Shown one piece after another: positions 30,001 through 39,000 of a stretch of 64,000 nt of DNA. How positions within the stretch are numbered: the first letter of the stretch is position 1; each line of letters starts with the position of its first letter. The DNA comes from Ruditapes philippinarum (lineage: Eukaryota). The stretch is from NCBI RefSeq assembly GCF_026571515.1, contig NW_026863863.1, positions 1 through 64,000 of the forward strand. Reading direction: 5' to 3'. The position numbers are program-made.

Positions 30001-33000
30001 TTTTTAATTTTATTTTCCATTAATTTGTATACTTTTGATATTTTTTTGAATAAAATATAGCGGACGTAGGTGCGAAAAGTTAAAAATAAAACAGAAAGAG
30101 TAAAATGACGTTTAGATTTTCTATGTAAAACGGTCGATTATTTACATTTGAATTTCGACGTTACGTCATGTGACTTTCATCATCATGTGACGTCTGTGAA
30201 GGCCAGTGATTACAATTCTACCAAGGGAGGATATCACTGTGAGGAGTTTGCTTCGGGGTAGCAACCTGGATGTTGAGATCTGCAGATTGTGTCATGGTGG
30301 TAGATCATTTTGTGCCAAGGTTTTTTTTTAAAAACCTTTGCCATTGTAAATATAATTATAGCGCTGCGCACGACATGAAAAAAGTTAGATGTTTTTACAT
30401 TTGGGACCTTGAGTGGTGACCCTACCTTCAGCGGGTTTGTGATTGCAATTGTTGTGCCTCTGGGCTAATTTGTTTCATAATGGTTGATTATTTCTACCCG
30501 ATTTTTCTTTAAAAAAATTTGCAGCGGTTTAAAATGTTCATGCGGGCCCCAGACACAACCCTCTGATTTTCTAACATTTGACCTTTGTAAGTGGTGACCT
30601 TTGACCTTGGGTTAGCAATTCCCAATTATTGCGTCTGCAAACATTCGTCCTCATTAATGAAATTGACACTCGTCCAAGTATTTTAAAAAAATTTCTTTTC
30701 AAGCGGTTTTAAATGTTATGGGCAGGACACAAAATTTTTATCCCTTTTTAACCTACTGTTTTGGGAACTTTAAATGTTACCTGGGCCCTTGGGATAGCAA
30801 AAAATTTTATTGCTTTTCTCAAAATTTTTTCTCAAAATTTGGTGCCAAGCTATTTAAAAAACAGAGGTTTTAAAGTTAAGGAGGGGGCATGAAATGTAGA
30901 CTTTTATACACCTGACCTTTAAGTGTGAACTTGACCTTGGGGGTGGCAACCTAATTATTGCGCTCTGCCCATGTTCTTATAGTGGTGATCAATTGTGCCA
31001 AGTTGTTTTTTTTTTAAAAACTTCAGTGGTTAAAATGCAATGGACCGGGCACGAAATGTAGACTTTTTAACATTTTTCCTTAAAGTGTGAACTTGACCTT
31101 TTGGGTAGCAAGCCAATCATTGCGCTCTGCATACCGTCTTAAAATGGTCATCAGTTAAGACAGTTTTTTTTCAAAAAGATTTCAGGGGTTAAAAAGTTAT
31201 GGAGAGGTCACGAAATGTAGACTTTAAATATGAAAAGAAGACTTTTTGACCTTTAAGTGTGACCTTGACATTGGGATTAGCAACCCAATTATTGCGCTCT
31301 GCACACCGTCTCATTATGGTGATCACTTGTAACAAGTTATTTATAAAAAATATCAGCAGTTTAAAAGTTATGGAGCTGACACGAATGTATACTTTTTATT
31401 ATGAAATTATGACATTTTAACATTTGACCTTAAAGTGTGACCTTTACCTAGCAACCAAATTTTTGCACTCTGCCTTTTGTCTCATTATGGTGAGTATTTG
31501 TGCCAAGTTATTTTAAAAAGATTTCAGCGGTTTAAAAGTAATGGAGCAGACACGAAAGTGTTACGGACGGACAGACTGACGTTCTCACAGGAGAGTAATT
31601 ATGTGGCTACTCTATTGTTCTTTTTAGCCACACAAAAGAAAATAGCCACATAAAAGCATTACGGAATGAATGACATCAAAGAGAAAGAACAGTTACCTAT
31701 TGTCCCTCTAGCCACATAATTACTCTCCTGTGAGTCGGAAGGACAGACGGAGGCCAGTCCTATAATTTCAAAGTTTCCCTTTTCCTCAAAAGAATATTGG
31801 TTGATCTTGTCAAATATTAAATACTTTGACCGTCTTATTTTGATTTTATTGTACTTTGAAAATATCAGGTACCACATTTATTATTAGATTTATCATTATT
31901 TAAGCAATAAATACCTATATTAATTGAATAATTAAAATTAAACATTATTTTCTTCCCAAAAAGGATATGAGAGATAATAAACAAATAATGTTAAAAGAAA
32001 AATGTTGACCCTTCTTCGGTTTGAACCCACGGCCTTAAATTTCAATGTAATTAACATTACTTCTTGGCTATTTGAAAACTCTTCTAAGAAGAATTTATGC
32101 ACCTTAATATAACAGACGTAGCATAATAAAGTGGTCTTCAGTTGAACCCTTGATCAAAATTCCACATTAGAGTAAAAATGTCCCGTCCAAGAAGTCAATT
32201 TCTCGCCTATTGTATTAAAATCTTATAAAGCTTTGTGGTTAATTTGACGCTAAACTCTTTTTGTATTTTTATATCTTTTTCTTTCATTTTCGGCACCAGG
32301 TATGTTTTTTACAAAGTAAAATACCTTCTTCAATCTTGATAAAATATAACAGAGTATTGTTGACCTTGTTATGCATTGCCCTCAACTTTTCATCATGAAT
32401 AGCATTTTCTACACGAAATGATACTTGATATGACCTTGAATTTAGCCCCGTGACTTCAACTTAATCATTCACTTCAGCCGTGCATTATAGAAATAGACTT
32501 GTTTAGCAGTAGGTATGAGGTAAGTGATCTAGGGCCATCGTGACTCTCTTTTTCAAGAAATACAATAATGCTGAATCAAATAATTAATAATTGTTCATTT
32601 ATATCATTAAGATATAAAATGTCAGTCGGGAAGTAAAATATGCATGTTCTTTGAAATATATATAATACAAAAGAGAAACTTCTTTGCATGAATATTTTTG
32701 TACTATTCAGTGTAAAATAACATATGTTCGCATATATTTGTCTATAGCCATATTACATACGTAATTAGAAATCATCATTAATCAAATAGGCTTTTTTGGA
32801 ATCCATTGAAGAAATAGCTGTAGTCTCATTTCTTATATATTAAAGTTACATATTTCGCCATCATCAAAGTAAAATATCTTCAAATGACGCATTGTTGATT
32901 CTGCGACTAGAAGGCGACTGTTCTGTTTGTCAATGCAAATAGCTTTCGGTGCTGCAATGGCGTCATTTTTGTTTAAAAGGTCACCAATGTATTTTCCATC

Positions 33001-36000: not shown

Positions 36001-39000
36001 TTCCACAAACCTTTCCTGTTGAGAACAAGGCGTACAATTGTAATCATGAGCTTCTTCGGACGATAAAATTTGTCCACACGTCGCCATTTTGTTTGCTAAC
36101 ATGTTAAGTTGTGCATAATAGTAACCGTAGATAAAAGCGGACTATTGATTTTGTAACACGCGTTTTATGGCACGCCACAATTGTTTACATACAGGACACT
36201 CTAAATCTCCGTCACAAACGATTTTCATTTGATCAGTGATGTTGTGCAATCTTTTAATGACATGTTGTATCTTGAAAAAAGAAAACATTATCTTTACCAG
36301 ATAAAAGTAATAACAAAAATAAAAAAATATTGCAAGATAATTTGTCTATATCTAACTTAAATGAAAGTAGAAATGAGCATTTGTTAATAATGAACTAATT
36401 TAATTTCAAATGTCTATGTTGGATACGTAAGTTTCAAGAAAAGATTTTGAAATGAAAAGAGGACAAAATGATTTCATACAATCTACTTTTTAGTTCGATA
36501 ACCGCACGGAGAATTCCTTCCCAATCTCAGGTCGCTGATCATGTGAAGGTAATTTGCGTTTTAGTTTTGAGTTATTTTGCACTGGCCATCAAAACGATCT
36601 TATTTTGTAATGAATTAGTGTTTATATCAACATTTTTCTAAAGACACATTTTTGGTATCAAGGGTATATTTTCTTTTTGAAATCTAATAGAAGAGGCACT
36701 GGTACAAAATTAATGTCATTTGACTATGTACATTTTGAAAAACTTTGTTCAATAAAATAACATAGGGACACTTTTTAATAATACAATTATTTCATTGTTT
36801 CATATTAATTGTTTGACGGGAAGAGTGATTAAGCCCTTGTATTTTGGGGTTCGGTTTTTTATTGTTTTTTATTGAATGAAAAGTTAAATGTGCAGCTGGA
36901 AAATTTAAAAAGGGATACTTTTTTAAAACCAAAAACACAAAAATGAATAACTGATTTTGAAACTTTTTGTAAACTCGTCAAAAAAGTAACAGTTTTCCCG
37001 GACGATGCGGGTCACTTGAAAGATTATGAAATCTTTTCTTCCGTCATTTGCACTGTACCGTGTTTGGTTTTAACAAGTTTGTGCGTTCCTTGCGGAGATG
37101 GGGTTTCCTGTCCTGGAAATGTTGCCACCTGTGGGGTTCTTATGAATTTAAGTAAAGAGGATGCTTTTAACTATTTTAATTCAAAATTTTACGAAATAAT
37201 GAAATTTAAACAAAAAGGGAAACAAAAATAAAACTAAAAAATCCCCTGCAAATTTTTTTGGAATGATTTAAAAACTTTCCCCTTCCCCTTGAAAAAAGCA
37301 AAAAAACATTTTGAAAAACTTTATGCAAAAACGAAAAAATCAAAACTTGAAAATTTTTTTGAAATTTTGATATAAAATTTTTAATCTAAAGGTAGATATG
37401 CCATTGATAGAAATTGTTTATGGCTTTGAAATTATACATAATATATAAAAAGAGAGCTAGATATATTTATTATAAATCGATCAATTATTGAATTGAAATT
37501 ATAAATACATTTATTTGTAAACTGCATTCATAGAATTTGATTGTGCCATATAGGCACATGTAGCCGAATGTTTTTGTACCAGTCTAGACATTTTTGTAAA
37601 TGTTGTTACAGTTTATACGATACGAACTTTTAATCACATTGCTGTATTAACTATTGATACAAGCATATTTAGTAATACATATACATGTACATAGTAGTTG
37701 CATGATAATTGATTTGTAACGTGATAACATCTTTGTACTCTTTTTGCTGCCTTATTAAATACACACGTATATTAGAGAATGAACAAGAACATTGTATTCT
37801 AACAAATATACATTTTCACTCGAAAGAAGAAAAAGAAAAAATATACATCAATACAATTTTTACTGGGTACACAAAGGGACATCTTAAACTGTCTCGGAGT
37901 GGCGGCGTGGTCGAGTTGTTAATGCAGTAATCTAAGGACAGTTGGCCTCGTGAGTAAAAACCCCACCAAGGGCAACACACTGTTTCCGTGAGCAAGAAAC
38001 TTTACACTCATTGCTGGTTGTGATCCAGGAACGGATTCGAGAGTGTTGTAACAACATTATACCGGTAGCTTCCAAATCAATCGAACTAAAGCTATGAAAT
38101 ACCCTGTTATTTATATGAATGTGGTTTTGTTATATTAAACTATGCGATTTAATCTTGTATATCAGGGTTCCTTTAGGGTAAGAACTTGTTGATATCTAAA
38201 ATTTAAGTAACTGCAGCCCTCAAACCAAGATTAAACAATTAAACATTTACAACATTTTTCTTTCTTTATTACATGTACTACATATATGCATATGAATTAT
38301 AGAAAAGATACATGGTTTTCTTCATATCTAGTATAATAATAGCATTCAATGATTAAACTCCTGTCCCTCATCAATCTACAATCTCCTAGAAAAATTAAAA
38401 GTGGATCCTATATACAAAGGTTACCAAGGCATAAAAACGTTGGAAAATAGCAATTATTTACAGAAATACTTTGAAAATTAGGGATAAAATAGAATCACTA
38501 ACCTTTAAGAATACCTATTAAGTGTTTTTCTGGCTCGGAGGTGGTTATAGAATATTTAAAGATTTGGTAATCAGAGAGCAATTCCAGTATATATGTGTAC
38601 ATAAATAAATTCTTACTTCTTCGTTTCGTAAATATTTAGAATACTATTTACATTTCCTGCGATTGGAGTACAATAGTAAATAAAACCATCTTAATATCAC
38701 CCCAACGCGTCAATATCTGCAGCTACATCATACTTAAAAGCCGTTTATATGTCCTGCCCTCTCAAAATAGCTTTGTTGACATAAATCAACTTGTCAAATT
38801 ATTAACCCGCACACTTTCTAATCATAGGTTACCTTTTAATGGTATTTACTGGTTTAACATCATATATCACATTCACCAATGTAAAATATCTTCAGTTGTG
38901 GTTTCTTATATTCCGAGACTATAATGCAGTTGTTCCGTTTATCAAAGCAGATAGCCTTTGGGGCTGAAAGACCGTCATGTTCGTTTAACAGTTCACCTAA

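What the first reader, a model, noticed from the sequence alone, without database searches (positions are those of the whole stretch)
32833..36200. Steep 5'-to-3' divergence gradient between B2 and B4: the intron is better conserved than the propeller CDS
Seen: B2 and B4 (55089-58430) share a collinear ~1.6-kb intron with long identical runs and only 7 differences in 120 coiled-coil residues (MRKK...DQCSF). In the mid-propeller (EQKIY...FPWG) 38 of 87 residues differ, and the 3' flanks look unrelated. Inference: either recent gene conversion/unequal crossover with a breakpoint early in the propeller, or strong diversifying selection on it.
Basis: partly seen in the sequence, partly recalled or inferred. 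Interest (0 to 1): 0.7.

Follow-up and report, generated by a model that had tools for sequence, protein, structure and literature searches.

The report
Gene-conversion tract between two clam paralogs
Two neighbouring clam genes of the B-box/coiled-coil/NHL-propeller type are old duplicates whose front 2.8 kb, intron included, was later copied from one to the other, an ordinary gene conversion and not fast adaptive evolution of the propeller.

Summary
B2 and B4 are two-exon B-box/coiled-coil/NHL-propeller genes on the minus strand. The window is from a venerid clam; B4 matches a Ruditapes philippinarum NCBI model.

- **Divergence pattern:** they are 88-99% identical from about 100 nt upstream of the ATG, through exon 1, the 1.6-kb intron and the first 739 nt of exon 2. 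Identity then drops to 63-82%. The flanks are unalignable.
- **A step, not a gradient:** one change-point is best by BIC (B2 33404-33428, strand 3 of blade 2). Mismatch rates are 6.8% before it and 28.6% after (0 of 200 permutations).
- **Neutral sites jump too:** dS rises from 0.14 to 0.88. Four-fold sites differ at 7 of 74 before and 21 of 44 after. Intron K is 0.069.
- **No selection signal:** omega stays near 0.3 on both sides, so diversifying selection is not needed.
- **Bounded tract:** upstream of the 5' edge, weak old-level homology (74%) resumes.
- **No outside donor:** no database paralog is closer to either half.

Best reading is a roughly 2.8-kb interlocus gene conversion between old tandem paralogs. 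B1 and B3 show the mirror pattern, with the 3' part homogenised. Mosaic junctions in the family cluster in blades 2-3. This is an ordinary mechanism and a clean example.

The parts
35768..36087 (-). B2 exon 1 (ATG at 36087; B-box region; ends in phase 2 before a GT donor)
   Evidence: The ORF and sequence were read. Pfam gives sub-threshold B-box hits: PF22586 at 25.9 bits (cut-off 27) and PF00643 at 21.1 bits (cut-off 24.1). The splice position is the same as in the NCBI model of B4.
34154..35767 (-). B2 intron (1614 nt, GT...AG), collinear with the B4 intron
   Evidence: Differences are 102 of 1541 aligned positions (K = 0.069), with 26 indel events. The only strong match elsewhere in the window is the B4 intron. 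There was no Rfam hit and no tandem array.
32833..34153 (-). B2 exon 2 (coiled coil plus six-bladed NHL propeller; stop at 32833-32835)
   Evidence: The frame is open. Pfam NHL scores 29.3 bits against a cut-off of 20. The AF2 model has propeller pLDDT of about 80-96. The Foldseek top hit is the TRIM2 NHL domain 7b2r (TM 0.78 normalised to the target).
33417..36190 (-). Young (converted) tract in B2, about 2.77 kb: 5' leader, exon 1, intron and the first 739 nt of exon 2
   Evidence: The mismatch rate is 0.068 here and 0.286 downstream. Exon-2 5' dS is 0.142 and exon-1 dS is 0.249.
33404..33428 (-). 3' junction of the tract in B2 (2- to 3-unit likelihood support interval), at residues 246-248 of exon 2, ...AFTMPSLMT|IELV...
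   Evidence: The junction falls in predicted strand E245-250, the third strand of blade 2.
32836..33414 (-). Old-divergence part of B2 exon 2 (second half of blade 2 to blade 6)
   Evidence: dS is 0.88 (0.60-1.34), dN is 0.265 and omega is 0.30. Four-fold sites differ at 21 of 44. Nucleotide differences are 165 of 579.
58016..58323 (-). B4 exon 1 (four codons shorter than B2 and B3 near the N-terminus)
   Evidence: It is 100% identical to residues 1-103 of P0001, an NCBI Ruditapes philippinarum model.
56392..58015 (-). B4 intron (1624 nt)
55089..56391 (-). B4 exon 2 (stop at 55089-55091)
   Evidence: P0001 residues 102-536 match at 99.5% by TBLASTN across the splice site. The 3' half matches P0001 at 100%.
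55658..58431 (-). Young (converted) tract in B4
58432..58573 (.). About 140-nt insertion present only in B4, abutting the 5' edge of the tract. It contains a 48-nt-arm palindrome (58467-58514 / 58518-58565).
   Evidence: The three-way alignment with B2 and B3 shows the insertion. The inverted repeat is 75% complementary. There is no other copy in the window.
36213..36263 (-). Upstream block where B2-B4 homology resumes at old-level identity. It pairs with B4 58574-58628 and is also shared with B3 44354-44410.
   Evidence: B2-B4 identity is 73.7% over 57 columns, B4-B3 is 77.2% over 57, and B2-B3 is 72.2% over 162.
4199..5350 (+). Mirror-image case: the B1 segment (propeller blades 3-6 plus about 650 nt of 3' flank) that is younger relative to B3 (38242-39357, minus strand)
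   Evidence: The change-point is at B1 4196-4199 / B3 39357-39360. Mismatch is 0.340 on the 5' side and 0.175 on the 3' side. dS is 1.09 and 0.36 respectively. The support interval is B1 4049-4217.

Best explanation
B2 and B4 are old tandem paralogs, 22 kb apart in the same orientation. They belong to a RING-less B-box/coiled-coil/NHL-propeller family in a venerid clam, and their neutral divergence is near 0.9-1 substitutions per site.

Much later, one interlocus (ectopic) gene conversion copied a contiguous segment of about 2.8 kb from one gene into the other. This was most simply double-strand-break repair using the paralog as template. The segment runs from about 100 nt upstream of the ATG, through exon 1 and the whole intron, to the third strand of propeller blade 2. 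The two copies of that segment have since drifted apart by about 7%.

The intron looks 'better conserved than the CDS' only because it lies inside the young segment while most of the propeller lies outside it. The result is two genes with nearly the same B-box/coiled-coil module and clearly different propellers (62% identical).

Shown: the step, the jump at neutral sites, the flat omega, the bounded tract and the lack of a closer donor. Inferred: the repair mechanism, a single event, and any functional consequence. The direction (which copy was donor) is unknown.
For: 1. Step in divergence. There is a single breakpoint at B2 33411-33417 / B4 55652-55658, with mismatch rates 0.068 and 0.286. 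The likelihood-ratio statistic is 188 and 0 of 200 shuffles reach it. BIC is best for one breakpoint. The support interval is 25 nt.

2. Neutral sites jump. Exon-2 dS is 0.142 (0.078-0.222) on the 5' side and 0.880 (0.604-1.335) on the 3' side. Four estimators give 0.09-0.15 and 0.69-1.05. Four-fold sites differ at 7 of 74 and 21 of 44, Fisher p = 4e-6. Intron K of 0.069 matches the 5' four-fold sites (p = 0.34) and differs from the 3' ones (p = 4e-13).

3. Omega is flat: 0.33 and 0.30, with no 40-codon window above 1.00.

4. The tract is bounded on both sides by homologous but old sequence. On the 3' side this is the rest of the propeller. On the 5' side, beyond a B4-only insertion, a 57-column block is only 73.7% identical, no closer than either gene is to B3.

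5. There is no other long shared sequence between the flanks.

6. A GENECONV-like permutation on the four-paralog codon alignment gives a B2-B4 fragment at codons 33-282, with 0 of 2000 permutations as good.

7. No third-party donor was found. The best database match to the B2 3' half is B4 (62%), with the rest at 53% or less (7 hits). For the B4 3' half, hits other than itself are 50-53% (4 hits). For the 5' half, B4 is 90% and the next is a Mercenaria protein at 40% (2 hits).

8. The family does this elsewhere. B1-B3 show the opposite polarity, including about 650 nt of alignable 3' flank. P0003 is a B3-like/P0006-like mosaic.
Against: - Direction and the number of events cannot be established from two sequences.
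- The 5' boundary rests on only 57 aligned columns beyond an insertion. It coincides with that insertion, so part of the apparent edge could be a later rearrangement.
- dS in exon 1 (0.249; 12.5 synonymous differences over 59 sites) and K in the 102 nt upstream (0.14) are higher than intron K (0.069). The tract may therefore not be perfectly uniform, although BIC does not favour extra breakpoints.
- A conversion tract of 2.8 kb that carries a whole 1.6-kb intron across what must have been non-homologous introns is long for a metazoan conversion (recalled general knowledge, not tested here).
- The GENECONV-like test also gives p = 0.01-0.03 for the four unrelated pairs. It is therefore partly sensitive to uneven constraint.
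- No orthologous DNA from another species was available to show paralogs closer than orthologs.
Confidence: 0.8

Rival explanations
1. Conversion plus selection. Conversions between B2 and B4 happen repeatedly along the gene, but those that homogenise blades 2-6 are removed by selection for distinct binding specificities. The propeller then persists as an 'island of divergence'. This refines the main explanation and does not exclude it.
For: The domain logic fits: an effector or oligomerisation module is kept alike while the putative ligand-binding propeller is kept different. That is the conclusion drawn for TLR1/TLR6 (PMC2077338, abstract read). The listing abstract of PMC3728101 states the 'islands of divergence' idea. 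Mosaic junctions in the family cluster in blades 2-3.
Against: - B1-B3 have the propeller blades 3-6 and the 3' flank homogenised instead, so propellers in this family are not generally protected from conversion.
- Omega in the divergent part is 0.30, with no excess of replacement changes.
- Differences are spread over strands (32 of 99) and loops (39 of 82) and are not confined to a face.
- One event explains the data.
Confidence: 0.2
2. Recent whole-gene duplication gave B2 and B4. The 3' part of one copy was later overwritten from a third, divergent paralog, and the upstream region was separately replaced.
For: Mosaics involving three parents exist in the family (P0003 = B3-like plus P0006-like). 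Bivalve assemblies may miss paralogs.
Against: - No database protein is closer to either 3' half than the partner is (62% against 53% or less).
- It needs at least two extra events to explain both the 5' and the 3' edges.
- The 3' flanks are unalignable.
Confidence: 0.1
3. Unequal crossing-over (non-allelic homologous recombination) inside the gene created a chimeric copy that shares its 5' part with one parent.
For: The genes are tandem and in the same orientation, 22 kb apart. There is a single sharp junction in exon 2.
Against: A crossover product should share recent-level identity with its parent through the whole 5' flank. Instead, identity collapses about 100 nt upstream of the ATG. Beyond a 140-nt insertion it resumes only at 73.7%, and no further homology is found out to several kb.
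Confidence: 0.05
4. Strong diversifying (positive) selection accelerated the propeller of a uniformly aged gene pair.
For: Protein divergence is concentrated in the propeller (38 of 87 against 7 of 120). The family looks like an expanded, possibly immune-related one: a TLR gene sits in the same window, and a B-box orthogroup is listed as expanded in bivalves in a table passage of PMC8382680.
Against: - dS and four-fold divergence rise 6- to 7-fold across the same breakpoint.
- Omega is 0.25-0.35 in the divergent part and never exceeds 1.00 in any window.
- Third codon positions differ at 38% against 10%.
Confidence: 0.03

Closest known systems
Partial interlocus gene conversion between tandem innate-immune paralogs, e.g. 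mammalian TLR1/TLR6 (PMC2077338; abstract read)
   Same: Tandem paralogs in which one contiguous part of the gene is homogenised by conversion while the rest stays divergent. This gives a domain-wise mosaic of ages.
   Different: - In B2/B4 the homogenised part is the N-terminal B-box/coiled-coil module plus an entire intron.
- Only one species and one event are seen.
- Recurrence across species, the key feature of the TLR1/TLR6 case, could not be tested.
TRIM-NHL proteins (TRIM2, TRIM3, TRIM71/LIN-41, Brat, Thin)
   Same: - One or two B-box-like Cys/His motifs.
- A long helical coiled-coil region.
- A C-terminal six-bladed NHL propeller. Foldseek top hits are the TRIM2, Thin, Brat, TRIM3 and TRIM71 NHL domains, with target-normalised TM of 0.70-0.79.
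   Different: - No RING domain is present in exon 1 or in the NCBI model of B4, which starts at the B-box exon.
- No filamin domain is present.
- Sequence identity to the solved NHL domains is 14-18%.
- This is a lineage-specific tandem cluster, not a conserved single-copy developmental regulator.
- Function here is unknown.
Bivalve expansions of B-box-containing gene families (PMC8382680; one table passage seen)
   Same: A B-box-type zinc-finger orthogroup is listed as expanded in bivalves. The window holds four copies plus a fragment.
   Different: I could not verify that the listed orthogroup is this family, because supplements are closed. That passage does not mention gene conversion.

Membership tests
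Interlocus gene-conversion tract | A contiguous segment significantly more similar between paralogs than the adjoining homologous sequence | tested here: met
   Mismatch is 0.068 against 0.286, and 0 of 200 shuffles reach the statistic. In the GENECONV-like test 0 of 2000 permutations are as good.
Interlocus gene-conversion tract | The excess similarity holds at neutral sites (synonymous, four-fold, intron), so it reflects age and not constraint | tested here: met
   dS is 0.14 against 0.88. Four-fold sites differ at 7 of 74 against 21 of 44. Intron K is 0.069.
Interlocus gene-conversion tract | The tract is bounded on both sides by older homologous sequence (distinguishes it from crossover or fresh duplication) | tested here: met
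   The 3' side is clear (579 nt at 28.5% divergence). The 5' side rests on 57 columns at 73.7% beyond a B4-specific insertion, which is weaker.
Interlocus gene-conversion tract | Paralogs within the species are closer than orthologs between species in the tract; donor and direction can be identified | not testable with these tools
   No eukaryotic DNA collection was available. Only one Mercenaria protein (P0007) came back, at 40-50% identity.
Positively selected (diversifying) domain | dN/dS above 1 in the region, with dS no higher than elsewhere | tested here: not met
   Omega is 0.30 (0.18-0.47) and dS is raised 6-fold. Site-wise tests are not possible with two sequences.
Chimeric gene from unequal crossing-over | Recent-level identity continues from the junction through the whole flank on one side | tested here: not met
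   Identity falls to background about 100 nt upstream of the ATG. No further HSPs of note were found out to 2.7 kb (B2) and 5.7 kb (B4) upstream.
TRIM-NHL family | N-terminal RING finger | tested here: not met
   Pfam finds no RING in exon 1. The NCBI model P0001 begins at the B-box exon. An unrecognised upstream exon was not excluded.
TRIM-NHL family | B-box zinc finger(s) | tested here: inconclusive
   PF22586 scores 25.9 bits (cut-off 27, E = 1.1e-5) and PF00643 scores 21.1 bits (cut-off 24.1). Both are below the curated cut-offs. A Cys/His pattern is visible in the translation.
TRIM-NHL family | Coiled coil between B-box and C-terminal domain | tested here: inconclusive
   AF2 predicts long helices over residues 8-165 of exon 2, but with pLDDT mostly below 55 as a monomer.
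TRIM-NHL family | C-terminal six-bladed NHL beta-propeller | tested here: met
   Pfam NHL scores 29.3 and 30.3 bits against a cut-off of 20. The model shows 24 strands in six blades with high pLDDT. The Foldseek top hit is the TRIM2 NHL domain.

The most novel reading that the evidence does not exclude
The junction is not random. A short zone in propeller blades 2-3 (alignment columns about 334-385, roughly 150 nt) may be a preferred recombination or resolution site. There the B-box/coiled-coil/blade-1 modules and the blade 3-6 modules of this clam gene family would be repeatedly re-assorted, giving combinatorial diversity of a putative immune receptor family.

Support: junctions fall at columns 363 (B2/B4), 384 (B1/B3), 334-358 (P0003 against B3 and P0006) and 384 (B1/P0002). 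Three random junctions would span 50 columns or fewer with p = 0.035.

Caveats:
- The test is post hoc.
- B1 is used in two of the comparisons.
- P0003 is an unnamed record that could be an assembly chimera.
- The family's generally higher conservation after column 384 can mimic a change-point at the protein level.
Probability: 0.15. Interest if true: 0.55.

Novelty: new member of a known kind. Interest (0 to 1): 0.3.

Why it matters
The sharp contrast between a conserved intron and a diverged propeller marks recombination history, not adaptive evolution or a functional intron.

In practice, trees and dN/dS scans of this expanded clam family will be misleading unless genes are split at such junctions. 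The two halves of one exon differ about 6-fold in age.

Biologically, it shows that tandem B-box/coiled-coil/NHL genes in a bivalve exchange modules. The result is near-identical N-terminal modules paired with different propellers. If junctions prove recurrent, this would be a simple way to diversify a candidate recognition family.

Tried and rejected
- **Functional intron element:** Rfam at a permissive E-value found nothing in 32700-36400. TRF found no array. Intron divergence equals four-fold-site divergence. Rejected.
- **Repeat or transposon in the intron as the cause of similarity:** the intron matches only the B4 intron plus one short internal 66-nt repeat. Rejected.
- **Gradient versus step:** models with 2-5 breakpoints did not improve BIC.
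- **Third-paralog donor:** three region-restricted protein searches found none. These searches need shared 5-residue words and cover annotated or predicted proteins only. B2 itself was not among the hits, so unannotated paralogs could be missed.
- **Resumed upstream or downstream homology:** small-word BLASTN found only the 57-column upstream block and a 29-nt downstream match at 83%, which I treat as chance.
- **Literature:** four searches found no paper on gene conversion in this clam family. This is a limited search of open-access text, not proof of absence.
- **Not done:**
  - The joined (spliced) protein of B2 or B4 was never built or searched. All searches and folds were exon by exon, so whether B2 has an annotated full-length protein stayed unchecked.
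  - Supplements of PMC8382680 (orthogroup lists) could not be seen.

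
Full report
**What is there**

The window is AT-rich (GC 32.4%) and has no N. It carries four copies of a two-exon gene plus one fragment.
- B1 is on the plus strand; its exon 2 lies at about 3389-4696.
- B2 is on the minus strand: exon 1 35768-36087, intron 34154-35767, exon 2 32833-34153.
- B3 is on the minus strand: exon 2 38863-40173, exon 1 about 43967-44287.
- B4 is on the minus strand: exon 1 58016-58323, intron 56392-58015, exon 2 55089-56391.

Domain evidence:
- Exon 1 gives sub-threshold B-box hits, and exon 2 gives NHL repeats above the Pfam cut-off.
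- An AlphaFold2 model of B2 exon 2, built on an eight-row family alignment, has long low-confidence helices followed by a confident six-bladed propeller.
- The best PDB neighbours of that model are the NHL domains of TRIM2, Thin, Brat, TRIM3 and TRIM71.
- No RING was found.

Protein searches identify the source as a venerid clam. B4 is identical to NCBI model LOC132723592 of Ruditapes philippinarum (P0001, 536 aa), and B3 is identical to LOC132723588 (P0005). That identity also validates the splice junction I read from the sequence (GT...AG, phase 2). The contig is not human.

I searched and folded exon by exon. The joined spliced model was not built or searched, so whether B2 has an annotated full-length protein stayed unchecked.

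**The observation**

In a MAFFT alignment of both loci with 1-kb flanks:
- All 28 windows of 100 columns from B2 36191 to 33486 are 88-99% identical.
- The next seven windows are 82, 79, 70, 63, 79, 69 and 63%.
- Both flanks are at 35-53%.

A binomial change-point analysis over 3266 ungapped columns (349 differences) prefers one breakpoint, at B2 33411-33417 / B4 55652-55658.
- The rates are 0.068 and 0.286.
- BIC is 2056.5 for one breakpoint, 2066.4 for two and 2228.3 for none.
- 0 of 200 shuffles reach the observed statistic.

The support interval is 25 nt. So this is a step, not a gradient. It sits at residues 246-248 of exon 2 (...AFTMPSLMT|IELV...), in the third strand of blade 2.

**Recombination or selection**

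| Region (B2 vs B4) | Measure |
|---|---|
| Exon 1 | dS 0.249, dN 0.048 |
| Intron | K 0.069 (102 of 1541; 26 indel events) |
| Exon 2, 5' of the breakpoint | dS 0.142 (0.078-0.222), omega 0.33 |
| Exon 2, 3' of the breakpoint | dS 0.880 (0.604-1.335), omega 0.30 (0.18-0.47) |

- LWL85, YN00 and ML give the same picture: dS of 0.09-0.15 against 0.69-1.05, and omega of 0.25-0.46.
- At four-fold sites, 7 of 74 differ before the breakpoint and 21 of 44 after it (Fisher p = 4e-6).
- The intron is indistinguishable from the 5' four-fold sites (p = 0.34) and very different from the 3' ones (p = 4e-13).
- No 40-codon window has omega above 1.00.
- Replacement differences in the divergent part occur in strands (32 of 99) as well as loops (39 of 82).

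The two parts of the gene therefore differ in age, not in selective regime. In the 3' part, B2 and B4 are nearly as far apart at four-fold sites (0.48) as either is from B1 or B3 (0.455-0.571).

**Conversion rather than crossover or fresh duplication**

The young tract ends on both sides.
- On the 5' side, identity stops at 36190/58431.
- B4 there carries an insertion of about 140 nt with a 48-nt-arm palindrome. The insertion is absent from B2 and B3.
- Beyond it, a block shared by B2, B3 and B4 is only 73.7% identical between B2 and B4. That compares with 77.2% for B4-B3 and 72.2% for B2-B3.
- No other sizeable homology joins the flanks.

No database protein is closer to either half than the partner is:
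- For the B2 3' half, B4 is 62% identical and the others are 53% or less (7 hits).
- For the B4 3' half, hits other than itself are 50-53% (4 hits).
- For the 5' half, B4 is 90% and the next is a Mercenaria protein at 40% (2 hits).

A GENECONV-like permutation gives a B2-B4 fragment at codons 33-282 that 0 of 2000 permutations match. The four unrelated pairs also reach p = 0.01-0.03, so this test is partly confounded by uneven constraint.

The simplest history is an old duplication, then one interlocus conversion of about 2.8 kb that carried the intron along, then about 7% drift. The direction is unknown.

Weak points:
- The 5' edge rests on 57 columns.
- Divergence near the 5' end of the tract is somewhat higher than in the intron.
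- The tract is long.

**The family context**

B1 and B3 show the mirror image.
- dS is 1.09 in the 5' part and 0.36 in the 3' part.
- The breakpoint is at B1 4196-4199, with mismatch rates of 0.340 and 0.175.
- Homology continues about 650 nt into the 3' flank, while the sequence upstream of exon 2 is unalignable.

Propellers are therefore not generally shielded from homogenisation.

P0003 is an unnamed record.
- It follows B3 at 43 of 46 informative sites up to column 333.
- It follows P0006 at 38 of 40 informative sites from column 337.

B1 against P0002 has junctions at columns 221 and 384. B3 against P0006 has none.

Junction estimates of 334-358, 363, 384 and 384 cluster. Three random points would span 50 columns or fewer with p = 0.035. 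This is post hoc, the comparisons are not independent, and it could reflect conserved sequence that favours resolution there.

**Comparison with what is known**

The mechanism is textbook interlocus gene conversion. The closest described analogue I read is TLR1/TLR6, where conversion keeps one region alike while the rest diverges (PMC2077338, abstract). A table passage in PMC8382680 lists a B-box orthogroup as expanded in bivalves. I could not check whether it is this family, because supplements are closed. Four literature searches found nothing on conversion in this clam family.

**Verdict**

The gene-conversion alternative is supported and the diversifying-selection alternative is rejected as the cause. 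This is a new, clean instance of a known process, and interest is modest. The possible recurrent junction is the only part that could raise it.

Noticed in passing
window 3389-5350 (+) and 38242-40173 (-): B1 and B3 show the opposite polarity to B2/B4. The 3' propeller (blades 3-6) and about 650 nt of 3' flank are 76-88% identical. The coiled-coil half is 59-72% identical, and the sequence upstream of exon 2 is unalignable.
   Followed up: yes
protein P0003 (unnamed jgi record) against B3 (window 38863-40173) and P0006: P0003 is a mosaic. It is B3-like (96-100%) up to alignment column 333 and P0006-like (96-100%) from column 337. The switch lies within about 30 residues of the B2/B4 junction. 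It could be a real recombinant or an assembly chimera.
   Followed up: partly
window 49472-52629 (-): A fifth, broken copy of the family. It has intron-like and exon-2 pieces similar to B1 (72-93%) and B3 (82%). About 640 nt is deleted internally, reading frames are shifted, and no B-box exon is nearby. It is probably a pseudogene.
   Followed up: partly
window 14352-16985 (+): An 877-codon open frame encodes a Toll-like receptor-type protein, with many LRR hits and a C-terminal TIR domain. It lies between B1 and B2.
   Followed up: partly
window 58432-58573: An insertion of about 140 nt is present only in B4, with a near-perfect hairpin (48-nt arms, 75% complementary). It looks like a miniature inverted-repeat element and sits exactly at the 5' edge of the converted tract. 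There is no second copy in the window.
   Followed up: partly
window 36196-36320, 44317-44467, 58406-58431 plus 58574-58628: A short upstream element is conserved among B2, B3 and B4 despite old divergence (invariant runs). It may be a promoter or 5'-leader element of the family.
   Followed up: no
window 32833-36087 (B2): Both B2 exons are open and have canonical splice sites. Even so, none of the three searches returned a protein identical to B2, while B4, B3 and the B1 ORF were returned. B2 may be unannotated or annotated as a non-coding or pseudo gene. I did not check this, because that would need the joined model.
   Followed up: no
window 8630-10127 (-): Three adjacent open frames have translations that look like fragments of a retroelement reverse transcriptase, with a YADD-type motif (recalled). 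The frames are interrupted. No family search was run.
   Followed up: no
window 17898-18540 and 18768-19409; also 10920-11488: A 640-nt direct duplicate is 98.3% identical and 870 nt apart, with an 83-85% relative at 10920-11488. It is a probable interspersed repeat.
   Followed up: no
window 45382-46557 and 47087-48055: Two satellite-like tandem arrays with a period of roughly 165-170 nt (judged from HSP offsets) lie upstream of B3. Internal identity is 72-74% and 85-89% respectively.
   Followed up: no
window 58016-58323 against 35768-36087: B4 exon 1 lacks four codons near the N-terminus that B2 and B3 both have. This is an indel inside the young tract that arose after the conversion, or marks B4 as derived.
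   Followed up: no
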